Positions 6,632-32,649 of a stretch of 64,000 nucleotides of DNA are shown piece after piece (position 1 is the first letter of the stretch; the number at the start of each line of letters is the position of its first letter). Position numbers and translations under genes: made by a program. The notes under the pieces are model-generated. The model had not been told where the DNA came from, searched no databases, and worked only from the letters and a program-made list of their open reading frames with translations. This DNA comes from a virus. Location: IMG/VR virus record IMGVR_UViG_3300028027_000060, positions 6,062 through 70,061 of that record; one strand, written 5' to 3'.

Positions 6632-6906
6632 GGTGATGAGTTATATTCTAGTTCCTCCTTAGCATACTTCGAGTAGAAGTAGTTCTGTAAACCACGGAAG
6701 TTAAAGAACCCGCCAAGGAACACCACAAAGTTAGCGAAAATCATGACAAGTGCGGCAAGAATTACCTGCTGAATGTACTCGATTGAGATCAGCCCGTCGC
6801 CAAAGTACTCGGCGCTGTATGACCCTGCGAGCAGGAATAGGAAGAACGCGACTGGGATAGACCACAAGCCGTCGAAGAGTTGGAGTTTGCGTAGTATCTT
6901 TTTCAT
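6514..6906 (-). CDS. holin-like membrane protein (3 TM)
   Basis: Three hydrophobic segments; directly upstream of and overlapping the endolysin. Confidence 0.6.
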   Translation of the reverse strand: MKKILRKLQLFDGLWSIPVAFFLFLLAGSYSAEYFGDGLISIEYIQQVILAALVMIFANFVVFLGGFFNFRGLQNYFYSKYAKEELEYNSSPWQRIVLYICVYFGLLLAFLFILWLIMTATASAPLPLPL

Positions 6907-20148: not shown

Positions 20149-20640
20149 TTAGAATAGTTTTTTCTCCAACAGGAGCATGTTGAACTTGTCCTTCGCGTCT
20201 ACGCCCTCGAGCATGTTGAGCTTGTCGCTATACTCGGCCACTGAGTCCTTCTGGATCTTGCGGAACTCCTGTAGGAAGTCGAACACGCACAAGTCCTTCT
20301 TGAACACCTCCATTGACGTGCCCTCGTAGTCCTCGTACAGCGCATACTCGATGAGGTACGCGTTCTCGATGACGTCGATGAGTCCGCCGAAGGTGATCTG
20401 CGGGCGGTCTACGGTAGGAAGCTCTGGGCTGATGTTCCAGTCCACGAGGTAGTCCTCAATCTTCTTTGCATGCGTCAGCTCGTCTGCCGACTCCTTGGCG
20501 AAGAACTCGGCCGCCTTGAAGTAGCTCACGTTCTGGCACCAGTTGCTGGCTGCGCGGTAAAAATAAAACGCGTTGTACTCGTCCTTGAGGCGAGGCAACA
20601 GCAGGTCTACGACCTCTTTATCTAACTTATTTGGTGTCAT
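20149..20640 (-). CDS. ferritin (non-heme FtnA-like)
   Basis: E..A..FY...S.WC, FF..ES.DE..HA, IE, FLQEF..IQ: four-helix ferroxidase pattern, 163 aa. Confidence 0.85.
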   Translation of the reverse strand: MTPNKLDKEVVDLLLPRLKDEYNAFYFYRAASNWCQNVSYFKAAEFFAKESADELTHAKKIEDYLVDWNISPELPTVDRPQITFGGLIDVIENAYLIEYALYEDYEGTSMEVFKKDLCVFDFLQEFRKIQKDSVAEYSDKLNMLEGVDAKDKFNMLLLEKKLF

Positions 20641-23600
20641 GGACAGTTACCTGATTTCGTTAAAAGTTGAGCGTCCTCGAGCATTCGAGTGATCTCCTTA
20701 AAGTTGTTGTAAATATAGGACAGTTTAGGGTCTCCGTCCAAAATAGCGTTTATCTTCTGGCGCTCAGACCATCCGCCACCCTCACGCATCTTGGCGTATA
20801 GGTCGGCTACCTCCTTGGCGTTGTTGTCCGCGAGCTGGGCCTTGGACTTGATTTCTGGCTTAATTCCTAAATCAACTTCAAGCCTTTTTACGGCTTGTTG
20901 TTTCATTATTTCTTCGGCTGAGTCATATCCGTTTTCGTCAAAAGACTTGGTGTTGAATTTATCGTAAGCATTATAGGTGTCAAACGATCCAAGTTTGTTT
21001 TCTATAGTGTTTCTGTCTCCACCATCGTAAATGAAAAACACAACATCCGGACGACCGTTATTAAAACGCTTATAGGTCTCGTAATCCCAGTCTTTTATAG
21101 TGTTTCCATTGCTGACCTGTGGTCTGTACTCGTCATTGAATGATGTGCGAGATACCGCCTTAAAGCCAAACAATGAATAGTAATCTGGAAGAATAGTGTC
21201 AAACGCTTCGGCTGTTGTGGCGCCTTCTTTTATCCCAAGCACCATGAGCTGGGCTAGGTTTTGCGGTCTGTTAGCTGATGGATTCGAGAATGCGCCACCC
21301 AGAAACCCTTCTTTATTAAGAGTAACCCCTGTCGATCCGTCTTCGGTAACAAACATACGCATCTTGCCAAAGTCTTCTTCGGAATGAATCGTAACAGAGG
21401 CTGCAAATGGGTTGTCCTTTAAAGACTCCATCATCATCTGACGGTATGCCTTAGGGTCAGTTACTTCGTAAATCTTTTGAACTCCCTTGAATTTAGGGAA
21501 TGCATTTATGATACCGGAATTTATCTTGTCGTCAAGACTGTATTCGGCAGATACTGCTACGTCAAGTGATCCAACGCGCTTAGTTCCTTGTACACTTTTT
21601 CTGGTGATTCCCCTTGTTCCATTGCTTTTTGAAGAGTAGCTCTCCAGTAAACTGGATAATTCTCCAGGGTCTTTTTCTGGTCTGCTGTCAATTCTTTCTT
21701 GTTCATTGATTCTTCTTTTTGTTTCATCGGATAAGTTCTCTAGGCTAGATTTTGATTTAACACCTTTTGGCGATTTACCTACAGCTTTTCCAGCTCTTGC
21801 GCCCACTGTGGGAAGTCCGCCGCTAACTGCCCCTTCTGTTCGTTGTCCAGCGGCAGGCTTATTCCCGCTAGAGAGAGGTAATTCTTTAAGGTATGTGGCT
21901 GTTTTATTTTCGTCAAGGATTTCATCAACATATCCTCCCCAGTCTGTGATTGATAAGTCTTTTCCATATGATTTTATATTGTTTTGAGCTTCTTGTAAGG
22001 TTATTTTACCCGCACTGTAATCGGCCCAAATATCTTTAACTTTTTGTTTTTGTTTTTCGCTTTTTTGATTAGCCGGGAATATAGCTCTTGCACCTTCCCA
22101 AGTAATACTTTGCATTTCCCTAGCAAGCACGTTGCGCTTCTTTGCTGCTTCTCTATACGCATCTGCAAAAAACGAGTATGTGCCTTCGTCAAATTTAACC
22201 TCTGCGCTTGTGCTGCCTAAAGGCAACATATACGAAACAGCTATGGCATGAGTGTCAATAGTCACCTCACCGTCCGTTTGAGGGGCTGCAATATTATTGT
22301 AAAAATTCCTTACTTTATAAGCGTTACCAATATTTGCAGATATATTTTCTTTGGATCCATCTTGTATAATGGAAACCGCCTTTGCAATAGTATCGTATCC
22401 AGAAAAAGAAGATGGGGACTTTATTTTAGCATCTACTATCGTCCCTGTAGGTATTCGTAATGGTGCGTTTCTTTCATAGTTTTGATCAAATCTAGCACGC
22501 GTCATTGCGGATTTATCATACCCACTTAGTTCAGAAAACGGCTTGCCTATGGCCTTTTGTAACTCTGGAAGATACGCTATTTGTTTAGGGTAAGGCTTGC
22601 CTGTGCCATCTACTGTTTTTGACTTGTAATAATCGTAATCACTTTGTTCAAATATCGTGTTTTGATTATTAGCGTAAAAATCCAATATGAAATGCGCCAA
22701 ATGCACATTATCAAACCATGGCTTCTGTGGTGATTGAGTTGCTATTACAGCTGATGCTTGCTCTAACGTGACATTATATTTATCAGCCATTTCTTGAGCA
22801 ATGATGTTTGCTCCGTCATACCACAATTTGGATATGTTACGAACATCTGGAGTTATGTTATCGTACACAAAAAGCAAGTTAGATACCACGGTTTCTTTCG
22901 CTTTTGAATACACCTTGTCAGCCCATTTTATTTTTTCTTCTGAAGTTAAAGTTTTAGAAAACTCACCTACATCCCCCTTTACCAAATGTGTTTTTGATAA
23001 TTCAACAGCCCTTGAAACATACATGTCAGGCTTGTTTTCTTTCAAGGCCTCAATGCTTGCTGGTCCAGAATATGTGATAACTTCTTTTTTGTCTCTCTTA
23101 GCCGTCAGCTGCATACTCGGTTGAACTTCTCCAGCTTTTGTTTTAGCCTCTGTTCTTTCTGCAATTTGTTGAGAAGTAAGAGAAGATTTAGACTTAATTC
23201 CTTTCAAACTAAATTCTGCTCTTTTGCCAACAAACGCGTCCTCTACTGCTGTACCCGCTTTGATACTCTGAGCAATCGTGTTGAAAAACTCAAGTGTGTC
23301 CTTCTGGTCCTGTAGATCCTGGAACGGCTGGAACCTATCGAACGTAACCGTTGACACGAGCTTGTTAATAAGTTCAGCTATCTTACGGACGATGCCGTAT
23401 TCCAACGGGGTCTGCTTGTCGGACAGCATGCCCGCAAGTTCTGCTAAGTACTCCTCGGCCTGGCCAATCTCTTCCACCCCAATCTCTTTGTACTGGTCTG
23501 CAAAGTCTGAGAGCCTTTTGTTTCCCGAGGCAGAGATTATCTTCTCGATATTTTTACGGAAGTCAAGGAACACGGCAGAGTTGTCTCCAAACGTCTTGAG

Positions 23601-24518
23601 GAGTATCGCGTGAGTAACCTCGTGTACCACCGTCTTTGGCGTGGCGTTGCTGAGGTTGATGTCAATACGCCCCACGATAGTGCCGTCGTTTGACGTGGTG
23701 TAGCTGAAGTTACCCGAAGAGTTTATCTGGCCCTTGAGGCCGTTCATTGCGGCGGCGTACTGCTTAGAGTCCTCGTGTACGTGGATGTCCATCGATGGGA
23801 ACACGGACTTGAGAGTGCGAGCGGCCTTCTTTACCATCGCTATTACCGACTTCTTAGTTGCGTTGTCTGAGTGCTTACGCTCCAGGGCGTCGATTGATGC
23901 CTTGTTGCTTGCGCGTGTCCCCATTGGCACGCCTTCCACCTCCAGCGTCTCGTTGGTCTCAATGCCTTCAGCCAGGCTTGGCTTGGACTTCATCTGTTCC
24001 TGCAACGCAACCGCGTTCTCTACGGCCGCAACGAGTTCTGGCTCCACGCCATTCTCTACCGCGTTGTGGTAAGCCTCGGCTATCTGCTGTGATGCAGGCT
24101 TGCCGATGGACAGCTTTACCTGCTTAACGAGCGATTCGTATACCGAAGGGAGCACCTTCGACAGGTTCATGATGGCCGCGGTCGTGTTGTCTACGGACTT
24201 CAGTGCCGACTTGACAACGTCTGTAACTGGGGCCTTTGGGAACTCCTTCTTGGCTGTCGGCTTCTTCTCTGTCGGCTTCTTAGTAGGCTCAGTCTTCTTG
24301 GTTGTAGGCTTGGCTGCCGCTGCCTTTATATACCCGTTGTCGGTGAGCCACTTGGTCACGCTGTCCACGTCCATCTTGCCGTCAGCCTTCTGGTACTTGG
24401 CCATCATGTCCGCCAGCGCTGGGGTGTAGTTCATGTGGGCGGCAAGGGTCTCCTTTGATCCGAACACCTTACCAGCATCCTTGCCCGTCTTGGGTATATA
24501 TACGCAGCCTTTTGCCAT
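20637..24518 (-). CDS. polyvalent virion protein: zincin-like metallopeptidase + VTIDTHA (DUF7178-like) domain + GNAT-like domain
   Basis: HEVTH (23610-23624); LWYDGA, KVRNFYNNI, VTIDTHA, MQSITW; AFDTILPDYY..FGF and GRPDVVFF. Confidence 0.7.
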   Translation of the reverse strand: MAKGCVYIPKTGKDAGKVFGSKETLAAHMNYTPALADMMAKYQKADGKMDVDSVTKWLTDNGYIKAAAAKPTTKKTEPTKKPTEKKPTAKKEFPKAPVTDVVKSALKSVDNTTAAIMNLSKVLPSVYESLVKQVKLSIGKPASQQIAEAYHNAVENGVEPELVAAVENAVALQEQMKSKPSLAEGIETNETLEVEGVPMGTRASNKASIDALERKHSDNATKKSVIAMVKKAARTLKSVFPSMDIHVHEDSKQYAAAMNGLKGQINSSGNFSYTTSNDGTIVGRIDINLSNATPKTVVHEVTHAILLKTFGDNSAVFLDFRKNIEKIISASGNKRLSDFADQYKEIGVEEIGQAEEYLAELAGMLSDKQTPLEYGIVRKIAELINKLVSTVTFDRFQPFQDLQDQKDTLEFFNTIAQSIKAGTAVEDAFVGKRAEFSLKGIKSKSSLTSQQIAERTEAKTKAGEVQPSMQLTAKRDKKEVITYSGPASIEALKENKPDMYVSRAVELSKTHLVKGDVGEFSKTLTSEEKIKWADKVYSKAKETVVSNLLFVYDNITPDVRNISKLWYDGANIIAQEMADKYNVTLEQASAVIATQSPQKPWFDNVHLAHFILDFYANNQNTIFEQSDYDYYKSKTVDGTGKPYPKQIAYLPELQKAIGKPFSELSGYDKSAMTRARFDQNYERNAPLRIPTGTIVDAKIKSPSSFSGYDTIAKAVSIIQDGSKENISANIGNAYKVRNFYNNIAAPQTDGEVTIDTHAIAVSYMLPLGSTSAEVKFDEGTYSFFADAYREAAKKRNVLAREMQSITWEGARAIFPANQKSEKQKQKVKDIWADYSAGKITLQEAQNNIKSYGKDLSITDWGGYVDEILDENKTATYLKELPLSSGNKPAAGQRTEGAVSGGLPTVGARAGKAVGKSPKGVKSKSSLENLSDETKRRINEQERIDSRPEKDPGELSSLLESYSSKSNGTRGITRKSVQGTKRVGSLDVAVSAEYSLDDKINSGIINAFPKFKGVQKIYEVTDPKAYRQMMMESLKDNPFAASVTIHSEEDFGKMRMFVTEDGSTGVTLNKEGFLGGAFSNPSANRPQNLAQLMVLGIKEGATTAEAFDTILPDYYSLFGFKAVSRTSFNDEYRPQVSNGNTIKDWDYETYKRFNNGRPDVVFFIYDGGDRNTIENKLGSFDTYNAYDKFNTKSFDENGYDSAEEIMKQQAVKRLEVDLGIKPEIKSKAQLADNNAKEVADLYAKMREGGGWSERQKINAILDGDPKLSYIYNNFKEITRMLEDAQLLTKSGNCP
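21557..21706 (-). CDS. overprinted (+1 frame) small helical protein MNKKELTADQ...ELSALDHLT
   Basis: 49 aa (56 aa from in-frame ATG 21727), amphipathic; the host frame is low-complexity linker here; lies just before the GNAT domain. Confidence 0.6.
   Translation of the reverse strand: MNKKELTADQKKTLENYPVYWRATLQKAMEQGESPEKVYKELSALDHLT
21779..21931 (-). CDS. overprinted (+1 frame) small protein M(LM)KSLTKIKQPHTLKNYLSLAG...QELEKL
   Basis: Part of track ORF 21779-21967; P.T..NYL.LA motif recalls small stand-alone phage proteins; lies just after the VTIDTHA domain. Confidence 0.6.
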   Translation of the reverse strand: MLMKSLTKIKQPHTLKNYLSLAGISLPLDNEQKGQLAADFPQWAQELEKL

Positions 24519-24520
24519 GC

Positions 24521-25222
24521 TTACTTTTTAATTTTATTTTTTTCAGAAGAGTTTTCACCTTTGTTAACAGGGCCGTATAGCTCCTCTGTACCAAAAAGGT
24601 TTACTATCTGTTGCCATGGAATGCTTTTCATAACAGGCTTTGCCAAGTTTGATCCTTGTGATAAATATGCATACTTACCATACTTACCAAGCCCAGGAAC
24701 TGCGCTAAACATGTCCAAACCTTCTTGCAATGTCGGTGTTACCCTTCCAGATGCCTTCCAAACCTCGTAAGCTCTCTTGGCGTCGTCATGAGAAAACGTA
24801 CCAGTGGGATCCACTAATTCCATTATATTTTCCAAGGTAGAGTCTGGCAATCTCCATTGCTCGTTATCATAAACGGCCTTCTCCTCGTTTGTCATCGGCC
24901 TAAGTGCCGAGTTAGCCTTTGACGGCACCTGCATGCTTGTAGGCTTTGCGTATTGTCCCTGGCCGTTAATCCAGGGAAGATTTGCTGGCGGTGTCCCTGT
25001 AACTGGCGGATCAGTCTCTAACATTACTCCATCTGCCGCCTTCTGGCCCTGCTGGTCAAAGTTGGGTAGGCTCTCCACCAGCGCGTCGATGCACTCGTGG
25101 CAGCCCTCGTTCAGCTTCTTCTTGACCCAGTTCACCTTGTTTTTAGGAATGATGGCCATCACCCCCTTGCTGGAGAATATAGCCATCTCGTCGCCTTCGA
25201 CCTCTAACAGTTTCTTTTCCAT
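24521..25222 (-). CDS. internal virion (cargo) protein
   Basis: EVEGDE and KAADG motifs of crAss-like cargo proteins. Confidence 0.65.
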   Translation of the reverse strand: MEKKLLEVEGDEMAIFSSKGVMAIIPKNKVNWVKKKLNEGCHECIDALVESLPNFDQQGQKAADGVMLETDPPVTGTPPANLPWINGQGQYAKPTSMQVPSKANSALRPMTNEEKAVYDNEQWRLPDSTLENIMELVDPTGTFSHDDAKRAYEVWKASGRVTPTLQEGLDMFSAVPGLGKYGKYAYLSQGSNLAKPVMKSIPWQQIVNLFGTEELYGPVNKGENSSEKNKIKK

Positions 25223-28200
25223 TACCTTACGGGGATTAAGTTGCCATACTGATCAGGGGCGTAATTTACACCATTTATCGTTATGATTGGGTTCCCGTTT
25301 GGAGAAACTTGCTGCTGCGGCTGTTGTACGGGCTGTTGTGCTGGCTGTTGAGGCGTGATGCCGCCTACCACCTTGTTGGCCGTGCCTAGTCCCCTGTTGA
25401 TCGCGCTCATCTGCATGGACATCTTCTGTGCCGCGCTGAGTTTATTCCCCGCAGCGAATGCCTTAGACGCGTTGTTTGCCACGCCTGCCCCAACGAACAT
25501 AGAGGCCACGTTGCCTAAGCCGTTTACCACGTCCCCGACCTGGTCAAGTTTGCCCGTGTGCTGAGATGCGTCGTAGTTCTTGGCGTCGATCTGTCCGACC
25601 TGGTTGACGATGTTACCCACGCCGCCTACAGCCGAGGCTATGGGTGCGGTTACTGGAATGACCTTGAGCGCCGTACCCGCGAGCTTGCCAGCAAAGTTTG
25701 CCCCAGTGTCGAACCTGTCGTTGTTGTACTGGTCCTCGTCCACTATGTCCTGCATGGACTTGATGCCAGCAACACTGCCGACGGCCCCGAGTGCGGTGTC
25801 GGCTATCCCGTAGCCCACGTCGCCAAGTGCGTTCCAGAACCCGCCCTGCTTTGCCTTGAGCTTTGGGTTTTTGCCTGTGTACTTTATCTTGCCGCCAGCG
25901 ATCTCTACGTCGATGCCGCCCTGTGCATGGCTCTTGCCCTTGAACTCCTTGATAACCTCCCACTTGCCGCCTGGCTTGAAGTCGAACGACATGCCGTCCT
26001 TGGCCTTCTTCTGGCCTGGGGGACACTTCACCTCGACCTTGTTTTCGCGGACCATCTTGTCCACGTCCTGCATGGTGACAACCTTTTCGCCAAGCGCCTT
26101 CTTCATTGCCAGCTCTGCCTCGGTAAGGCCGCCCTGCTTCTGTTGCTTCTTGGCATCGGCCAGCTTTGCCTGGGCTGCGGACAACTCCTCGAGAGACAGC
26201 GTGCCCTGGCCCGTGGCCTGCTCGCTGACAAGGTGGTCGTGTATCATCTGCTCCAAGGCGTTTACGGCGGCTATGCGCTGCTGTCCAGCCGTTGGGATCT
26301 CTGGCATCTTTGGAGGTCCTGCCTTCTTGCGCTTCTCTGGCTCCTGCTTCTGGCCCTCCTGCTTGGTCTTGTTGACCTCCTCCTGTAACGCGGCGTACTG
26401 CTTGCCGTCTGCGGTGTTTTTCCACTCAGCCTCGGTGACCTCGTATGCCTGGTCTGGGGTCATGCCCTGTGCTATCAACTCCTTGACACGGCCCTGGCTT
26501 TCCTGCACACCCTTCTCCATCAGGTCCATCATCTCCTGCTCCTTCTGGGCGACGGTTGCCTCTGGGGTACGTGTCTTGCCCTGCTTCTTGCCCTTGGATG
26601 GCTTCTTGCCCCCCTTGGTCTCCTCTGCCGCAAGTTTGTTCTTCCAGTAGTCCACGTCGGAGTCTGCAAATCTCTTAGCGTCATCGTCGGACATACCCTC
26701 CACGTCGTAGCCGTTCTCCGCAAGGAACTCCTTGGCGGTCTTCTTGCCGTCGATGTAGTCAAACGCTGCCCGTGCCTCCTTACGTGCCCTGTCGGCCGCC
26801 TGTTGTTTTGCCGCGTCGTTAGACTTGATGCGCTCAATGTCGGACGTGGTTATGGCTGGGGCGTTGTCGATGTGGTCCTGCTCGGTCACGGCCTGTAGCA
26901 CGCGCTCGCGAGGGTCCTCAGATACTACTTCTTCTTGTGCTTGAAGTACTCCACCTGCTGGAGTCGTTTCTGTGCCTGCGCCTTCGACAGGTTGGGTTGT
27001 GATAGGTTCTTGCCCGACTCCGACTTCACCTGGTACCCCTTGGATGTTTTCTTGATCATTTTTTTTACCGTTTAATATGTCGTAAATACTCTGCTCATTT
27101 GCCGCGATCTGCTCCTTAGCCTTTCCATACTCGTTGGACTCGGCTGGGTTGTCTGCCATTGACTGGCGGTGCGCCCTGTTCTGGTTGGCTATGGACTTGA
27201 TTGCGTTCCTTTGCGTCTGGTCCAACTTGGACCATAACGGGTTGCTTACAACCGATGTCAAAAAGTCGTCAGCCATCTTGGTGGCCTCGACCAGGTCTGC
27301 GGTGTTGTTGTAAGCCTGTTCCGACCCCGCCTGCTGGGCCTGTAGGTCTTCAGCGCTTGGCTTCTTCTTGTCCTCAATCTCTACCTGCCTTGGTGCGAAC
27401 ACGGCCTTTGCTATGCCGCTTATGTTCTCAGACATTGACTTCCATGCACCCTTGGTCTTGTGGTCGTTTACCTGTTTCTGCAAATCGTCTAGGATAGGCT
27501 TGGTGTTGCCAAAGCCCTCAACGCTAACACGCTCCTTGGCCAACATGGTCAAGAAGTCCTTGTTGGTGCCAAGATTCCTTGCATCCTCTGGGGTCATCAT
27601 CATGACCGTGCCGTCGGCATAGGTCAGAGTGAGCATGTCTGGAGACTTGCCCTGTAGGTACTCGGCGCCCGTGCGCTCGTAGTCCGACTGCTGTTGGCGA
27701 TACATCTTGGACAGGATCGGGTCCTGGTCGTGCTTGTCTGCGTTCCTTCTCGCCTCGTCTGCGCGTGCCGTAAAGAATCCGTACACGTTGCGCTGTGCGT
27801 TGTTTAACTTAGCATCGTCAGCAGACTTCTTAATGGTCTCTGCATGCGTTATCTGCTCCTGCATCACCGCCGCTTCATCCTTGTCAACCTGCCCGCTGGC
27901 AAACATTGCAGACACGACAGAACGTGCGTACTTCTCATCTTTATCGAACACAAGTTTCTGTAGGTACTGCCTGCGCTGGTCCTCAAAGCCTCCCACCAAC
28001 GTGGCCTTGTCTTGGAAAGCCTTGGCGTCGTCTACGGCCTGTCCCTGGCGAGACTTTGTCCTGGCACCTCCAACAAATCCTAACAGACCTATTGGGGCCA
28101 CGCCTACAAGGGTCTCCTGGATGCGCTTTGCTGAGTACATCTCGCCAAAGTTTGCGGTAGGCGAAACCTCGTTTATGATGTTCTCCTCGAATATGTTCTG

Positions 28201-30714
28201 CGGTATCTCCTGTAAAAACGTCTCGACCCCTACCTCAATGCCTGCACCCACTGTGCCCCTGGTCACACGCCCTGCTATGTCCGCGCCTAAACCCCTTCCA
28301 TAGCTGGGGATCATTCGGTATGCGCCCTTGGTGAGGGGAAGCCCGTCCAGTGCGTATGTTAAAAACAGTGCCTGTTGCGTGTCGATGCTGCGGTCTATGG
28401 CCTGCTGTGAGCGTCTAACGTCGCCAGTCTTGTCAAAAACCTCCTGCCCGTTCTGGCCAGCTATAGACATGGTGTCCGTTGCCCATCCACTCAACCATCC
28501 AGCCATGAGGGTTATAGCCTCTGGCGCGGCGGCTCCGCCTGTTGCATATGTGGCAAGGGCCGTTGTTAAAAGACCTGGCGTCATGTTACCCGCGAGGCTA
28601 CCCCCGAGGTTCTGCATGTTGTAGTACAGGTCGTCAGTGTTAAAGCCAAGGTCGCTGACCTTTGGCGCGGCCATGCTCCACTCGTTCTGCATAGCCTCCC
28701 CGAACACCTTCGTGTTGTTGCTGCCAAAGAAGCTGCCCACGCTCTTTATGTACGAGCCTACGCCGTTCATGAACGAGCGACGGGCCATGTAAAGGGGAAT
28801 GATTGACTCCTGGCTGGCGAGCTTTAGCTGCCTAAACAGTTCGTTGTTTTTCTCGGTAAACGCCTCGCCGTATGCCTCCGAGTATGCCGTGTTTATCTTC
28901 TCTAGGTCTGCCGCTGGTATTCCGCCGCTCAACTTCTGTAGTTCGGCATCCGTTGACTTGATTATGTTAGCCCTCTGTGTCTCAAACTTGGCGTTGTACC
29001 TGGAGTATATCTTGTTGGTCTCGGCTAGGATGTCCTCCTCTTTCGGCATCTGGTCCTGCATGGCCTTGCCTAGCGCGTCGAACTGGTCGTTGATCTTGCC
29101 GAACTCGCTCTGGTAGGTCATCTCGTCGATCTGGCCGTTCTGCATGGCGTCGTTCAGCTGCTGACCCTGCTGCTTTAGAGCCTCTATCTGTTCGCTGTAT
29201 TGCTGAGATATCTCATCTGCCTGCTTCTTTGCCGCGCCAATTATGATGTCGGCCTCGTCGCTTGCCTGTGACTGGTAGTCGTTGTATATGCCGTCTATCT
29301 GTGAGACAAACTTGGCGTTGATCTCCTCCTGGAACTTGCCGCTCTGGTACTTCTTACGCAGCTCATATTCCTCTGGGTGGTTTTCCTTGAAGTTCTCCTC
29401 GACGTTGTACATGTCCGACTCGGACTTTATAGCCGCCGCCGCCTTTGCGTACAGGGCCTCTGCGGCCAAGCCGTCGGGGTCCATGCCGTAGTGCTGGACA
29501 ATCTCCTTCACCTGCTTGTTGAGCTTGAAGGCGTCAACGGTAGGCTGGCTGATGGTATCATCCGCCTCGGTTAAAAAGTGTGCGTATGTCTTGCTGTTGA
29601 AGTTTTCCTCGACAAGTTTGTCCATTGGCAACGAACCCATTGCAGAGTTTTGCTCGTCGTTGACCGTGCGCAGCTGCTTTAGGATCCTGTTCTTTACCTC
29701 CTCGTGTGTTGCCTTGCGCTTGTTTGGGTTAGGCTCGTAGTACTCGCCTGGCCACGGGATGTCTGTGCCCACGTACTTCTGCCAAAGCTCTTTGCTTGCC
29801 GCTACCTTGTCGTAGTTAACCGTGATGTCGTCAATAGAGACGTCTCCGTTGGGAGCCACGCTGAGCATCACGTTGTCTGTCAGGCTCTTGGCGTCTAAAT
29901 AGTCCTTTGAAGTGTCCTCGTAGCGAATAAGCCTTGACTTTACCTCGTCGTACTTGTCTGGGGCAAACATCTCCTCCTGCGGCTTCTGCACCATCTCGGC
30001 CAGTGAGAACTCACCAATGCCACGCTGCGGTCCTGTGGGCTTCTCTGCAACCTTGATCTTTGGTGCGCCACCCTTTGGCCTGTTTACCTGTCGGCCAGAC
30101 AGTATGCCCTCGATCTCCTTTACGTTGTTGTCGAACCAGTCCTGGTTGCCCCTGTCCTCAGCGTAAAGGTTTTCCTCGTCGCTAAAGTAACTTAACGGGG
30201 AGTCACGCTGTGCGATAATATTGTTCTTGGTGTTGCCAACGGCAGCACGCATTCCCGATGACCACTTACGGACATTGTCGCCGCCGAGGGTATCGAGTTC
30301 GTCAAGTATCTGGTTGAGGTATGCCTGCTTGTCGGAGAAGTGCTTGGTGGTGTATCCCACGTCCCATCCGTCGTCAAGGGCCTGTTTTGCCTCGGTCTTT
30401 ATGCTCTTGTGTACATCCTTTGCCTTGGCAAGCAGGGTCATCTGCTTTTCTATAGACGCCTGGTCAACCGCGCCACTCTCTGTAGAAGGCTGCGCAGGCT
30501 CTCCTGAACCTGGTGTAGTACCCCCTTTTTTTTTTACACCTAAAAGACCTTCAAATTCATTATAATCGGTAAAACCGAGATCCTTGTTTGACTCGTCAAA
30601 AAACAACTTGCGGTTGGCGTCATTTTCCATGAGGCCCTTAAACTCATTATAGTCGGCAAATCCCTGTGACTTGCCGTAGTTGTCGTATAAGAACTTTAAC
30701 TGATTCTCGTTCAT
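25222..30714 (-). CDS. large internal virion/ejection protein
   Basis: 1830 aa; GFxDYNEF twice at the N-terminus; glycine-zipper segments; SHAQGG, KAKDG and KAKQGG motifs. Confidence 0.75.
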   Translation of the reverse strand: MNENQLKFLYDNYGKSQGFADYNEFKGLMENDANRKLFFDESNKDLGFTDYNEFEGLLGVKKKGGTTPGSGEPAQPSTESGAVDQASIEKQMTLLAKAKDVHKSIKTEAKQALDDGWDVGYTTKHFSDKQAYLNQILDELDTLGGDNVRKWSSGMRAAVGNTKNNIIAQRDSPLSYFSDEENLYAEDRGNQDWFDNNVKEIEGILSGRQVNRPKGGAPKIKVAEKPTGPQRGIGEFSLAEMVQKPQEEMFAPDKYDEVKSRLIRYEDTSKDYLDAKSLTDNVMLSVAPNGDVSIDDITVNYDKVAASKELWQKYVGTDIPWPGEYYEPNPNKRKATHEEVKNRILKQLRTVNDEQNSAMGSLPMDKLVEENFNSKTYAHFLTEADDTISQPTVDAFKLNKQVKEIVQHYGMDPDGLAAEALYAKAAAAIKSESDMYNVEENFKENHPEEYELRKKYQSGKFQEEINAKFVSQIDGIYNDYQSQASDEADIIIGAAKKQADEISQQYSEQIEALKQQGQQLNDAMQNGQIDEMTYQSEFGKINDQFDALGKAMQDQMPKEEDILAETNKIYSRYNAKFETQRANIIKSTDAELQKLSGGIPAADLEKINTAYSEAYGEAFTEKNNELFRQLKLASQESIIPLYMARRSFMNGVGSYIKSVGSFFGSNNTKVFGEAMQNEWSMAAPKVSDLGFNTDDLYYNMQNLGGSLAGNMTPGLLTTALATYATGGAAAPEAITLMAGWLSGWATDTMSIAGQNGQEVFDKTGDVRRSQQAIDRSIDTQQALFLTYALDGLPLTKGAYRMIPSYGRGLGADIAGRVTRGTVGAGIEVGVETFLQEIPQNIFEENIINEVSPTANFGEMYSAKRIQETLVGVAPIGLLGFVGGARTKSRQGQAVDDAKAFQDKATLVGGFEDQRRQYLQKLVFDKDEKYARSVVSAMFASGQVDKDEAAVMQEQITHAETIKKSADDAKLNNAQRNVYGFFTARADEARRNADKHDQDPILSKMYRQQQSDYERTGAEYLQGKSPDMLTLTYADGTVMMMTPEDARNLGTNKDFLTMLAKERVSVEGFGNTKPILDDLQKQVNDHKTKGAWKSMSENISGIAKAVFAPRQVEIEDKKKPSAEDLQAQQAGSEQAYNNTADLVEATKMADDFLTSVVSNPLWSKLDQTQRNAIKSIANQNRAHRQSMADNPAESNEYGKAKEQIAANEQSIYDILNGKKNDQENIQGVPGEVGVGQEPITTQPVEGAGTETTPAGGVLQAQEEVVSEDPRERVLQAVTEQDHIDNAPAITTSDIERIKSNDAAKQQAADRARKEARAAFDYIDGKKTAKEFLAENGYDVEGMSDDDAKRFADSDVDYWKNKLAAEETKGGKKPSKGKKQGKTRTPEATVAQKEQEMMDLMEKGVQESQGRVKELIAQGMTPDQAYEVTEAEWKNTADGKQYAALQEEVNKTKQEGQKQEPEKRKKAGPPKMPEIPTAGQQRIAAVNALEQMIHDHLVSEQATGQGTLSLEELSAAQAKLADAKKQQKQGGLTEAELAMKKALGEKVVTMQDVDKMVRENKVEVKCPPGQKKAKDGMSFDFKPGGKWEVIKEFKGKSHAQGGIDVEIAGGKIKYTGKNPKLKAKQGGFWNALGDVGYGIADTALGAVGSVAGIKSMQDIVDEDQYNNDRFDTGANFAGKLAGTALKVIPVTAPIASAVGGVGNIVNQVGQIDAKNYDASQHTGKLDQVGDVVNGLGNVASMFVGAGVANNASKAFAAGNKLSAAQKMSMQMSAINRGLGTANKVVGGITPQQPAQQPVQQPQQQVSPNGNPIITINGVNYAPDQYGNLIPVR
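26925..27059 (-). CDS. overprinted (+1 frame) 44-aa basic protein MIKKTSKGYQVKSESGKNL...KRLQQVEYFKHKKK
   Basis: A7 run before ATG; matches the small phage protein pattern GY.V.S..GKNL...A.KRL.QVEYFKH recalled from stand-alone genes. Confidence 0.7.
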   Translation of the reverse strand: MIKKTSKGYQVKSESGKNLSQPNLSKAQAQKRLQQVEYFKHKKK

Positions 30715-30732
30715 GCAATTATTTTTTTATCG

Positions 30733-32649
30733 TCAAAAGGAGTAGTCGTTCCACATGTCGGTCCTTACAAGCCAGTTCTTTGATAAATTATCTGGATCTA
30801 AATCTGGGCTTGCTGACTTTGTTGTCTTGTAAACCTCCTTTTTAGCGGCGTCAATCTTTTTAGCAAAGTTAGGATCTTTTAATTGATTTTGATCAAATTT
30901 TGCCCATGCATCCTTTAACTCTTTGCCTACGCCAGGTCTTGTATTTTCATCAGCATTTATCTGATTTATGTCTATGAGACCAGCAGCAAGCAAGATCAAG
31001 TCCCTTGTATTCCTGCCCGTATTAAAGCGGTAGTCAACAAGCCTAACCTTGGTCTGATCTGGTAACGAATCAAAGTCTGGTACCTGAGACCTTACTGGCT
31101 TGATGTACTCGTCTTCCATGCGCTGAGCATTCTTGCCTGTATAATTTTCATTAGCGTATTTACCAGTGGTTCCAAAACCACTTCCGCCAGGGGCACCATA
31201 CTTCTGCTCGTGTTCCAATATCTTCAACGTCCAATCATCACTCCAGCCTTTATTAGTAGAACCCTTTTGTGAAGACGAGGCGGGCGCTTGTGCTGATGTG
31301 CCTCCTGTGTTAGTGCTAACTGAACCTGCTGTTGTGGTTGGAGCTGCTGTTGTGGTTGAACCTGCTGTTGTGGCTGGAGTCTGAGCAGTGCTAACTACTT
31401 TTTTTTTTTCGCCAGTGCTAACACCTGCGTTTGCCCTCATTCGTTCAGCCATTGTACCGCCTCCACTGGATGTTTTTGCTCCAGCGCTTGATCCAGCATT
31501 TGCTCCAGCATTTGCCGTGTTCTTGTTCTTGAACTCCATGAACATGTCTGGGTATCCCTCGACGTCAAACTGGTCCTTGTTGTTGCCGTAGTTTACGGTA
31601 AGCTCAACCTCAACTCCATCCTCCTTCTTTCCAGTACCCACCACCTCTACGTGGCCGTCTGGGCGTATCTTAAACCCGCCAGATGGTACGAAGTTAGATA
31701 TGCGGTTGCCTTCGTCATCGTTAACATACACGGGCTTGGTGTTCTGTAGAAGTATCTTGTTGATGCCTAGGTTTTGATCGTACTTAGCCTCGGGATCCTT
31801 AGTGGCCACCTTTATTGTGGGCGGCTTTGTCTTGGTCCCGCTTCCAGTACTAGACTTGCGCGTGCCAGTTGAGCCTGTCTGTAAGTCCTCCTCGGCTGGC
31901 CATCGGCTCTGTCCCATCTTAGCTACACGCTCCGCAAACGCGGCCTCGTCCTCTCCTGGCAACTTTAACGCCTCGTACTTCTCTTTTGTTTCTGGATCGT
32001 TCATTATAAGATCCAGCACAACTGACTTGTGTTCCTCTGGGTTCCTAGACTTTACCTTCTTCTTTCCCGTGTCTGTTACGCCTGGCTTTGGTATGGTCTC
32101 GTCAACAAACTTAATCATTGAGTAGTTTATCTTGACGGGGCTTTCCTCGTTACGCATCTTTGCACGCTCCTCGGGGGTCAGCTTTGGGTCTGAATACCTT
32201 TTCATCCACTCCGTAGTATGGTCCTTGTTGTACTTGGCCTCCTTGTCTCCGTTCATCAGCTTGTAGATGTCGTTGGAGTAAGCCTCGTTATCCTTTGCAA
32301 GCGATGCAGCTCTAGCCACCTTGTTCTCAAGCTCCCTCATCTTACGGGTAACCTGCGGGTCCATGTCGTTAGGATCGATGCCCTTTGAGCGTAAATCTAT
32401 AACATAGTCGTTGTAATCGTTCAGCGCCTTGTTTACGTGCTCGTAGTCGGCCTGCCACACGTCGGGCATCTCCGCCATATACGTGTTCCATGTGGCGTTC
32501 TGTTTCTTCTTCTCCTCCTCCTGCTTCTTTTGCTCGGCGATGATATCCTTCTGCATCGTGTACATCTGGTTGTAGAACGCAGACGTGTCGATCACCGTGG
32601 CCTCGCCAGGTGCGCCGCTCGCTACTCTTGCTTCGCTTGGTACTGCCAT
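30733..32649 (-). CDS. ejection protein with C-terminal lysozyme-like domain
   Basis: ILEHE and FDSLP...VRLVDYRFNTG after an S/T/A-rich linker. Confidence 0.6.
   Translation of the reverse strand: MAVPSEARVASGAPGEATVIDTSAFYNQMYTMQKDIIAEQKKQEEEKKKQNATWNTYMAEMPDVWQADYEHVNKALNDYNDYVIDLRSKGIDPNDMDPQVTRKMRELENKVARAASLAKDNEAYSNDIYKLMNGDKEAKYNKDHTTEWMKRYSDPKLTPEERAKMRNEESPVKINYSMIKFVDETIPKPGVTDTGKKKVKSRNPEEHKSVVLDLIMNDPETKEKYEALKLPGEDEAAFAERVAKMGQSRWPAEEDLQTGSTGTRKSSTGSGTKTKPPTIKVATKDPEAKYDQNLGINKILLQNTKPVYVNDDEGNRISNFVPSGGFKIRPDGHVEVVGTGKKEDGVEVELTVNYGNNKDQFDVEGYPDMFMEFKNKNTANAGANAGSSAGAKTSSGGGTMAERMRANAGVSTGEKKKVVSTAQTPATTAGSTTTAAPTTTAGSVSTNTGGTSAQAPASSSQKGSTNKGWSDDWTLKILEHEQKYGAPGGSGFGTTGKYANENYTGKNAQRMEDEYIKPVRSQVPDFDSLPDQTKVRLVDYRFNTGRNTRDLILLAAGLIDINQINADENTRPGVGKELKDAWAKFDQNQLKDPNFAKKIDAAKKEVYKTTKSASPDLDPDNLSKNWLVRTDMWNDYSF

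What the first reader, a model, noticed from the sequence alone, without database searches (positions are those of the whole stretch)
26925..27066. Complete small basic phage gene nested in the +1 frame of the 1830-aa protein
Seen: an A7 leader then MIKKTSKGYQVKSESGKNLSQPNLSKAQAQKRLQQVEYFKHKKK*; the host frame over it is an E/G/P/Q linker. From memory the GY.V.S..GKNL...KRL.QVEYFKH pattern exists as stand-alone phage genes. This third +1 nested gene suggests linkers of these giant proteins are routinely made by read-through over small genes.
Basis: partly seen in the sequence, partly recalled or inferred. Interest (0 to 1): 0.72.

Follow-up and report, generated by a model that had tools for sequence, protein, structure and literature searches.

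The report
Small gene hidden inside giant gene
A 44-residue basic protein gene, which many phages carry as a separate gene, lies whole and out of frame inside the flexible linker of a giant phage virion protein gene, so one stretch of DNA appears to be kept by selection for two proteins at once.

Summary
The ORF is real, but it lies on the minus strand (27059..26925). It is 44 aa, starts at ATG after seven A's, and sits in the +1 frame of the 1830-aa ORF (30714..25222).

An ORF this short is not unusual. Its conservation is. There are 439 database clusters of about 44-58 aa and 424 viral contigs that encode a relative. Of the 80 loci fetched, 45 carry it nested in an 800-3100-aa ORF, always in the same relative frame, and 35 carry it stand-alone.

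In nested copies the variation sits at the small frame's third codon positions. 65% of codon differences are synonymous in the small frame, against 3% in the host frame. T at those positions is almost absent (3% against 44% elsewhere in the giant ORFs), which keeps the host frame open and hydrophilic.

The start codon, an unstructured A-rich or SD-bearing leader, and stop codons right before the ATG all point to internal initiation rather than frameshifting. The host frame over it is predicted to be a disordered linker.

Stand-alone copies lie by terminase or capsid genes. Fused copies head prohead proteases. Function is untested.

This is a new variant of a known kind (embedded genes such as lambda Rz1).

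The parts
26925..27059 (-). Embedded small gene: 44 codons plus stop (ATG 27059..27057, TAG 26927..26925). It encodes a basic beta-hairpin plus helix mini-protein.
   Evidence: for the ORF. for the family. for the codon-position signature. AlphaFold2 pLDDT 91.4, strands 2-5 and 8-12, helix 26-42; it is the only copy in the 70,061-bp genome.
27060..27084 (-). Leader / translation initiation region of the embedded gene. It is A-rich (A7 at 27066..27060), G-poor and predicted structure-free, and has no Shine-Dalgarno motif, like the other genes of this phage.
   Evidence: window genes lack SD and have A/T-rich leaders. A 0.60 and G 0.10 in the 20 nt before the ATG, at the top percentile of the host ORF; folding energy of -25..+15 is 0.0 kcal/mol, against a mean of -7.1 for 40-nt windows of the host ORF.
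26923..27066 (-). Host-frame linker: residues about 1217-1264 of the 1830-aa protein, read from the same DNA one base out of register. It is rich in G/E/Q/V/P/A/T and predicted disordered.
   Evidence: for sequence and composition; residues 118-165 of the folded segment (host aa 1217-1264) have pLDDT below 50 and form coil, between helical blocks at pLDDT 70-89. T is avoided at the host's first codon position.
25222..30714 (-). Host gene: a 1830-aa giant protein in the structural operon downstream of terminase, portal and other virion genes.
   Evidence: No Pfam domain was found in the window's copy. By BLASTP single linkage it groups with giant ORFs of other loci, some of which carry polyvalent-protein domains: ddrB-ParB in L016 and InPase in L062 and L064.

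Best explanation
The window holds a real, separately translated gene for a 44-aa basic mini-protein (beta-hairpin plus helix). It lies entirely inside the +1 frame of a giant virion-protein gene of a Bacteroidota-type podophage.

How it most likely works:
- Ribosomes start at the internal ATG on the late structural mRNA. They are attracted by an unstructured, A-rich leader, the kind of start signal hosts without Shine-Dalgarno use.
- The same DNA, read one base out of register, forms a disordered hydrophilic linker between the N-terminal and C-terminal modules of the giant protein.
- Selection acts mainly on the small protein's sequence. On the host frame it acts only to keep the frame open and free of T-first codons (stops, Phe, Tyr, Trp, Cys).

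The small protein belongs to a large unnamed phage family that is tied to head and packaging modules. Its likely role (inferred, not shown) is a small nucleic-acid- or head-component-binding accessory of capsid assembly or DNA packaging.

What is shown: the gene's existence, family membership, dual-coding signature, conserved start and initiation-type leader. What is inferred: internal initiation in vivo, and the function.
For: 1. Family.
- 439 of 439 candidate clusters of 24-77 aa match at E<=10. The 120 listed have E 9e-17 to 8e-13 and 75-93% identity.
- A profile search finds 1515 representatives at E<=1e-3 and 310 at E<=1e-10.
- 424 of 555 candidate viral stretches were confirmed by tblastn.

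2. Architecture. Of the 80 loci kept, 45 have the ORF inside an ORF of 804-3116 codons, in every case at frame offset +2 from the small frame. The other 35 are stand-alone.

3. Frame under selection, in 36 unique nested copies.
- Entropy at small-frame positions 1/2/3 is 0.47/0.32/1.00 bits.
- 65% of codon differences are synonymous in the small frame, against 8% and 3% in the other two sense frames.
- Along the giant ORF of the window and 4 relatives, host third-position identity rises to 0.83-0.97 only at host aa 1211-1265, plus one other island. The background is 0.3-0.6.

4. The host frame is also constrained.
- T at the small frame's third position occurs at 0 of 491 stop-creating sites and 23 of 949 other sites. 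In stand-alone copies the figures are 81 of 457 and 116 of 783.
- T3 among codons that could end in T is 26/852 (3.1%) in nested copies, 20461/46523 (44%) in the same giant ORFs outside the overlap, and 205/784 (26%) in stand-alone copies.

5. Own initiation.
- A start codon opens the conserved N-terminus in the nested loci. It is ATG in most, GTG in four (L010-L013), and an ATG one to three codons upstream in L041, L051 and L070.
- The in-frame stop lies 0 or 1 codon before the start in 6 of 37 unique nested loci.
- Leaders are A-rich and G-poor (A 0.52 against 0.34, G 0.12 against 0.25; median 96th percentile) and unstructured (-1.2 against -5.3 kcal/mol).
- The 6 nested loci with an SD-like motif before the nested ATG come from loci whose other ORFs use SD more (0.41 against 0.11).
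- Window genes lack SD. Bacteroidetes initiate without SD, tuned by structure and upstream A's (PMC6847099, abstract).

6. It is the only copy in a genome rated 100% complete.

7. Head-module link.
- The terminase large subunit lies directly downstream in L022, L047, L052, L071 and L073, after a short opposite-strand ORF in L076, and one gene away in L038. It is upstream in L030. A major head protein follows 2-3 genes on in L056 and L067.
- The first 44 residues of the annotated prohead protease of Yersinia phage P400 and of its Vibrio phage pYD38-A counterpart align end to end with the family (hhalign probability 96%, E 2e-9 and 3e-9).

8. The host stretch is predicted disordered.
Against: - There is no expression evidence of any kind. 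No RNA run is listed for this DNA (uninformative) and no proteomics was available.
- An internal start inside a translated ORF must compete with elongating ribosomes.
- Third positions vary less in nested than in stand-alone copies (1.00 against 1.51 bits). Part of the conservation therefore comes from the overlap itself, or from a DNA-level role.
- The 80 loci are the best-scoring of 424, so they are enriched for relatives of the window and related to each other. The counts are not independent events.
- Function is inferred from gene neighbourhood in loci that I picked by ORF sizes. L037 and L053 have an aminotransferase next door, and 4 scanned neighbour proteins (in L026, L056 and L067) had no hit.
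- No solved structure or named family matches.
- The window's own giant protein has no recognised domain.
Confidence: 0.8

Rival explanations
1. Frameshift tail. The small frame is not initiated on its own. It is reached from the giant ORF by +1/-2 ribosomal frameshifting, or by loss of one A during transcription of the A-run. The product would be a truncated roughly 1217-aa protein ending in the basic 44-aa domain.
For: In the window, eight A's (seven plus the A of ATG) directly precede the ORF. A transcript with one A fewer would join host frame and small frame (read). In-frame C-terminal fusions of the domain to other proteins do exist, for example a 395-aa protein with the domain at 354-394.
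Against: - The A-run is not conserved. Most nested loci have unrelated leaders.
- A start codon is kept in the nested loci: ATG in most, GTG in four (L010-L013), and an ATG one to three codons upstream in three.
- A small-frame stop lies 0-1 codon before the start in 6 of 37 unique nested loci and 2-7 codons before it in 16 more. That leaves no room for a shared shift site.
- SD-like motifs sit at initiation spacing in the SD-using lineages.
Confidence: 0.06
2. Relic or DNA-level element. The stretch is conserved as DNA, for example as a homology patch for recombination between giant-gene modules or as some other cis signal. The small ORF in nested loci is then an untranslated leftover of a once separate gene.
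For: - The ORF is an island of nucleotide similarity. Among 34 nested loci with full flanks, 485 of 561 pairs share a blastn match over it. The match ends within 20 nt of the start codon in 395 of 485 pairs, within 20 nt of the stop in 362, and at both in 296.
- The flanks are mosaic. L005 and L074 share 552 nt downstream but nothing upstream. L002 and L005 share upstream only. Insertions sit right after the stop in L006, L007, L012 and L036.
Against: - A pure DNA element would not place its variation on the third positions of one frame, nor keep 65% of codon changes synonymous in that frame.
- It would not keep the start codon, the stop and an initiation-type leader.
- This is the only copy of a widely kept family in a complete genome.
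- The two readings can both be true: a coding gene that is also a crossover point.
Confidence: 0.08
3. Wrong strand or wrong frame. The conserved signal belongs to the antisense ORF 26935..27075 (+ strand, 46 aa, TTG start), whose third positions coincide with those of the small ORF, or to the host frame itself.
For: The antisense ORF exists in the window. It shares wobble positions with the small ORF, so third-position variation alone cannot separate the two.
Against: - That antisense frame is open in only 12 of 36 nested and 0 of 31 stand-alone copies, and only 37% of its codon differences are synonymous.
- In the host frame 3% are synonymous.
- Stand-alone copies lie in same-strand operons with terminase.
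- The sense peptide folds at pLDDT 91.
Confidence: 0.01

Closest known systems
Lambda Rz/Rz1 and other 'embedded' two-component spanin genes (Kongari et al. 2018, PMC6139136; passages read)
   Same: A small complete gene with its own start lies wholly inside a larger gene in the +1 frame. The family also occurs in non-embedded arrangements. Gene callers routinely miss the embedded partner.
   Different: - The small protein has no Cys, so no lipobox, and it is not a lysis protein.
- The host gene is a giant virion protein and not a functional partner of similar size.
- Here one family, at 75-95% identity, is both embedded and stand-alone. That paper found no spanin family combining the embedded architecture with another.
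- The overlapped host part is an internal linker.
Classical overprinted phage genes (phiX174 B in A, E in D; T7 18.7 in 18.5). These are recalled from knowledge, not from a call. A review of viral overlapping genes (PMC8227390) was seen only in a search listing.
   Same: Two proteins are read from one DNA stretch in different frames. One frame is ordered and conserved, the other disordered and tolerant.
   Different: In the classical cases the embedded gene is usually the young, disordered one. Here the embedded gene is the old, folded and widely distributed one, and the host frame is the passenger.
Polyvalent proteins of phages (Iyer et al. 2017, PMC5512222; abstract start and passages read)
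   Same: Related host ORFs are giant multi-module proteins in virion gene clusters and carry that paper's domains: ddrB-ParB in L016, and InPase in L062 and L064, which also give a DarB-like PHROG hit. Their modules are shuffled between lineages.
   Different: The window's own 1830-aa protein has no recognised polyvalent domain. The passages found for 'reading frame' and 'embedded', with 'linker' and 'frameshift' absent from the text, do not describe an out-of-frame gene inside such proteins.
N-terminal domain of prohead protease-like proteins of Yersinia phage vB_YenS_P400 and Vibrio phage pYD38-A
   Same: Same mini-domain over residues 1-44 (hhalign probability 96%), again at the head of a capsid-gene cluster.
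   Different: There it is fused in frame to a roughly 467-aa protein. Here it is a free 44-aa product read out of frame.
DUF1508/YegP-like small domains (PDB 3bid, NMB1088). The DUF1508/YegP label for 3bid is recalled; the call lists only the entry title.
   Same: Small beta-hairpin plus helix fold. It is the best PDB match.
   Different: Foldseek E = 2, TM 0.48 and 19% identity. There is no sequence match. This is not a member.

Membership tests
Unnamed small phage protein family (M-I-x-K-T..G-Y-Q-V-K-S-E-S-G-K-N-L-S..K-R-L-x-Q-V-E-Y-F-K-H) | Full-length sequence similarity to many independent members | tested here: met
   the 120 listed hits have 75-93% identity and 89-100% coverage; 310 representatives at E<=1e-10; 13 invariant columns among 30 sequences.
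Unnamed small phage protein family | Compact fold shared with the family's viral models | tested here: met
   pLDDT 91.4; best BFVD match has TM 0.90, rmsd 1.0 and 40% identity to a 46-aa uncharacterised phage protein. All Foldseek E-values are 0.02 or higher because the domain is short.
Embedded (fully nested, out-of-frame) phage gene, Rz1-like architecture | Whole ORF inside a longer same-strand ORF in another frame, conserved across relatives | tested here: met
   45 of 80 loci, always the same relative frame.
Embedded phage gene, Rz1-like architecture | Own start codon and ribosome-loading signal | tested here: met
   This is sequence-level evidence only; translation itself was not observed.
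Spanin (o-spanin) | Lipoprotein signal with a lipobox Cys | tested here: not met
   The peptide has no Cys and no hydrophobic N-terminus.
Programmed frameshift site | Slippery sequence conserved at the frame junction | tested here: not met
   the A-run is confined to the window and its nearest relatives; stops abut the start codon in several loci.
Polyvalent protein (host ORF) | Several conflict-related domains in one virion-associated polypeptide | tested here: inconclusive
   No domain was found in the window's protein. Related host ORFs carry ddrB-ParB or InPase. The link is by BLASTP single linkage.
Small terminase subunit | Gene directly upstream of the large terminase plus a recognisable TerS fold or family | tested here: inconclusive
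   The position is met in L022, L047, L052, L071 and L073, and nearly so in L076, where a short opposite-strand ORF intervenes. There is no TerS family hit, and 44 aa is far below known TerS sizes (the size comparison is recalled). In the window the gene is not next to the terminase.

The most novel reading that the evidence does not exclude
The embedded gene is a 'junction cassette'. It is a protein-coding island that supplies the phage's only copy of a head-module mini-protein. Because it is the one stretch conserved between otherwise unalignable giant genes, it would also serve as the homology patch at which N- and C-terminal modules of injected polyvalent proteins are swapped between phages.

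A conserved A10 slippery tract near the 5' end of the same giant genes would divert ribosomes early. That would leave the internal start site free. One gene would then carry three layers of recoding and overlap that together set the dosage of a giant protein, a short N-terminal product and the small protein.
Probability: 0.2. Interest if true: 0.85.

Novelty: new variant of a known kind. Interest (0 to 1): 0.68.

Why it matters
Fully embedded out-of-frame genes are textbook rarities in phages, and gene callers skip them. Here one is supported by comparative evidence at unusual depth: hundreds of contigs and a clear signature of selection on both frames.

The polarity is also unusual. The embedded gene is the old, folded one. 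The reading that passes over it is the younger-looking, disordered linker of a giant virion protein.

This gives a concrete, testable case of three things:
- how giant modular phage proteins may be stitched together across a pre-existing gene;
- how hosts without Shine-Dalgarno allow internal starts;
- how a conserved coding island marks the module boundaries of mosaic genes.

It also adds an unannotated but widespread head-module mini-protein family to the list of phage genes worth a functional test.

Full-text searches and term look-ups in the polyvalent-protein paper turned up no report of such a gene inside these proteins. Those searches cover open-access text only, and supplements were closed.

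Tried and rejected
- Pfam and PHROGs on the peptide: no Pfam hit. Three PHROG hits at E about 0.1, all of unknown function.
- PDB by sequence profile: one chance-level hit, E = 1.
- PDB by fold: nothing at E<=0.001.
- ESM Atlas: only 'hypothetical protein' clusters.
- Phylogeny of nested against stand-alone copies: 41 columns, no branch with strong support, 14 changes on the tree. One origin is neither shown nor excluded.
- Expression: no RNA holder is listed for this DNA. This says nothing either way.
- Contigs of X2 and X6 cover the region only partly.
- Synonymous-site scan of the neighbouring 1293-aa gene: not possible. Relatives align only over residues 1-64 and 98-452, not over the nested candidates.
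- Other nested candidates: 21727..21557 has 2 near-identical hits on contigs under 600 bp. 21967..21779 has 1 hit at 61% identity on a 599-bp contig. 22162..22001 overlaps a real DUF7178 domain of the host frame. They are not accepted as genes.
- Antisense ORF 26935..27075: rejected.
- Frameshift tail: rejected as the main route.
- Threshold note. 'Nested' means a host-frame ORF of at least 300 codons. Five GC-rich loci counted as stand-alone have host-frame ORFs of 116-257 codons over or into the small ORF (L048, L055, L068, L072, L081).
- Neighbour genes scanned were chosen by ORF size from 17 of the 31 unique stand-alone loci, so the head-module association is not an unbiased rate.
Full report
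THE OBSERVATION

The ATG is at 27059, the stop at 26927..26925, and seven A's precede the ATG. It lies in the +1 frame of an 1830-aa ORF on the same strand (30714..25222).

A 44-codon ORF in an alternative frame is not remarkable by itself. 58 ORFs of at least 30 aa overlap 24000..31000.

Contigs from two other sequencing runs of different studies bridge the ORF and the A-run with no indel: X3 with no differences and X5 with 12 differences. The frame relation is therefore real. The two X5 differences inside the ORF fall on third positions of the small frame.

THE PHAGE

The window is most of a 70,061-bp virus record rated 100% complete. It has a long minus-strand structural operon with terminase and portal.

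The nearest cultured relatives are Cellulophaga and Flavobacterium podophages, at about 22% portal identity. The window's genes have no Shine-Dalgarno motif and have A/T-rich leaders. This fits hosts such as Bacteroidetes, which initiate without SD (PMC6847099, abstract).

THE FAMILY

- The peptide has 439 cluster-level relatives of 24-77 aa. The 120 listed are 42-58 aa long and 75-93% identical.
- A profile search of 1.8 billion representatives gives 1515 hits at E<=1e-3 and 310 at E<=1e-10. Most of the 150 listed are 45-110 aa, with the domain at the N- or C-terminus.
- 424 viral contigs encode a relative.
- Among cultured phages only Aeromonas phage 1233 has a clear copy (58% identity, E 1e-8). 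It is unannotated and stand-alone, at the end of an operon.
- No Pfam family, no solved structure and no named Atlas cluster matches.
- AlphaFold2 gives a confident beta-hairpin plus helix (pLDDT 91.4). The model matches many small uncharacterised phage proteins, and domains in longer ones.

NESTED OR STAND-ALONE

Of the 80 best loci, 45 have the small ORF inside an ORF of 804-3116 codons. In every one the host frame is at the same offset. The other 35 are stand-alone. These 80 are the top scorers, so they are biased toward the window's relatives.

The nested loci span GC contents from 0.32 to 0.64. The window's genome has no other copy of the family.

WHICH FRAME IS SELECTED

I compared 36 unique nested copies with 31 unique stand-alone copies.

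- Variation sits on the small frame's third positions: entropy 0.47/0.32/1.00 bits in nested copies and 0.73/0.62/1.51 in stand-alone copies.
- In nested copies 65% of codon differences are synonymous in the small frame, against 8% and 3% in the other two sense frames.
- A scan along the giant ORF of the window and four relatives (about 60% protein identity) shows host third-position identity jumping to 0.83-0.97 at host residues 1211-1265. This is exactly over the small ORF. The background is 0.3-0.6.
- The antisense ORF that shares wobble positions is open in only 12 of 36 nested and 0 of 31 stand-alone copies, and is rejected.

THE HOST FRAME IS NOT FREE EITHER

- T at the small frame's third position, which is the host's first position, occurs at 0 of 491 sites where it would make a host stop and at only 23 of 949 other sites. 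Stand-alone copies have 81 of 457 and 116 of 783.
- Among codons that could end in T, the fraction that do is 3.1% in nested copies, 44% in the same giant ORFs outside the overlap, and 26% in stand-alone copies.
- The host linker is therefore kept open and free of Phe, Tyr, Trp and Cys.
- Its composition is G/E/Q/V/P/A/T-rich.
- A model of host residues 1100-1400 shows coil at pLDDT below 50 exactly at residues 1217-1264, between helical blocks at pLDDT 70-89.

HOW THE SMALL PROTEIN IS MADE

- A start codon opens the conserved N-terminus in the nested loci. It is ATG in most, GTG in four (L010-L013), and an ATG one to three codons upstream in three others.
- The A-run of the window is not conserved.
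- A small-frame stop lies 0-1 codon before the start in 6 of 37 unique nested loci. This leaves no room for a shared frameshift site.
- The 20 nt before the start are A-rich and G-poor relative to the host ORF (A 0.52 against 0.34, G 0.12 against 0.25; median 96th percentile).
- The region -25..+15 is nearly structure-free (-1.2 against -5.3 kcal/mol; in the window 0.0 against -7.1).
- Six nested loci have an SD-like motif at initiation spacing inside the giant ORF. Other ORFs in those loci use SD more often (0.41 against 0.11).

I read this as internal initiation matched to each host's start signals. Translation itself was not observed.

WHAT THE SMALL PROTEIN MIGHT DO

- In stand-alone loci the terminase large subunit lies directly downstream in L022, L047, L052, L071 and L073. 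It follows a short opposite-strand ORF in L076, is one gene away in L038, and is upstream in L030.
- A major head protein follows 2-3 genes on in L056 and L067.
- L037 and L053 have an aminotransferase instead, and some neighbours gave no hit. I chose these loci by ORF size.
- In Yersinia phage P400 and Vibrio phage pYD38-A the domain forms residues 1-44 of a roughly 467-aa protein, annotated as prohead protease in P400, just upstream of the capsid genes.

The family is thus tied to head and packaging modules. A role as a small basic binder of nucleic acid or of a head component is my inference.

THE HOST GENE AND MOSAICISM

By BLASTP single linkage, 31 of 46 N-terminal parts form one cluster. 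The C-terminal parts fall mainly into two clusters of 31 and 8, and the window is in the smaller one.

Related host ORFs carry ddrB-ParB (L016) or InPase (L062, L064). L062 and L064 also give DarB-like and minor-head-protein PHROG hits. These are domains of the virion-packaged 'polyvalent proteins' (PMC5512222, passages). The window's own protein has no recognised domain.

Flanks are mosaic around the small ORF:
- the same upstream with different downstream (L002 and L005);
- the same downstream with different upstream (L005 and L074);
- insertions right after the stop (L006, L007, L012, L036).

In an all-pairs test of 34 loci, 485 of 561 pairs share a blastn match over the small ORF. The match ends within 20 nt of the start in 395 pairs, within 20 nt of the stop in 362, and at both in 296. 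The small gene is thus an island of conservation at a module boundary. Whether it also promotes the exchanges is open.

I listed all ATG-started nested ORFs in the window's large genes. I then tested the two most gene-like +1 candidates in the 1293-aa gene. They have 2 and 1 relatives, on tiny contigs, and no family hit. A third overlaps a genuine DUF7178 domain of its host. 'Routinely' is therefore not supported.

The direction of evolution is unresolved. Read-through over an older gene is plausible, because the family is much wider than the nested clade and 4 of 31 stand-alone copies already have the host frame open.

COMPARISON WITH WHAT IS KNOWN

The architecture works like lambda Rz1 inside Rz (PMC6139136, passages). 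But this is not a spanin, as the peptide has no Cys. The host is a giant unrelated protein. One family is both embedded and stand-alone. The embedded partner is the folded, older one.

My full-text searches and look-ups in the polyvalent-protein paper found no report of such a gene. They cover open-access text only, and supplements were closed.

VERDICT

This is a real embedded gene with a dual-coding signature: a new variant of a known kind. Interest 0.68.

Noticed in passing
window 30526..30535 (minus strand), host codons about 60-64 of the 1830-aa ORF; also L002-L077: An exact A10 run lies 32-83 codons into the giant ORF in 30 of 39 unique nested loci. It is always in the same phase (NNA AAA AAA AAA G, read X-K-K-K). 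The -1 frame after it stays open for about 22-40 codons, with a recurrent motif (R.Y/W..RF...AF.AE.W) and then a stop. All three codon positions are about 0.83 identical over host aa 51-80 in the window's close relatives. This looks like a conserved slippery site (dnaX-like -1 frameshift or transcriptional slippage; the comparison is recalled) that gives a short N-terminal product.
   Followed up: partly
window 21557..22162 (minus strand), inside the 1293-aa gene 20637..24518: There are three consecutive +1-frame ATG ORFs of 53, 62 and 56 aa. The 56-aa and 62-aa ones read like proteins but have only 2 and 1 database relatives. The 53-aa one overlaps the host's DUF7178 domain.
   Followed up: partly
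L027 about 6647..6705 against L015 6077..6135: The 3' half of the small ORF seems to be present twice in L027. A 274-nt match at 94% starts inside the small ORF of L015 and lands 570 nt further downstream in L027. Shorter duplications of the ORF's last 10-20 nt flank insertions in L006, L012 and L036. These look like footprints of recombination at the ORF's 3' end.
   Followed up: no
window 25558..26650, both strands: Long ORFs of 264-276 aa are open in three further frames over the C-terminal part of the giant gene, in a GC-rich, strongly A-over-T-skewed stretch. This is probably a composition effect. It was not tested.
   Followed up: no
window about 31409 (inside the 638-aa gene 30733..32649) and about 3256: Further homopolymer runs of 11 and 9 bases.
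   Followed up: no
L001 8001..8132 (Aeromonas phage 1233, OR359403.1): A clear stand-alone member of the family (58% identity) is not annotated in the GenBank record. Only 28 features are annotated in the 67-kb genome.
   Followed up: partly
runs X1-X12: DNA nearly identical to the giant gene occurs in subsurface and freshwater metagenome runs from several studies. Shares of 0.39-1.0 are seen in six runs, one of which may be the source.
   Followed up: no
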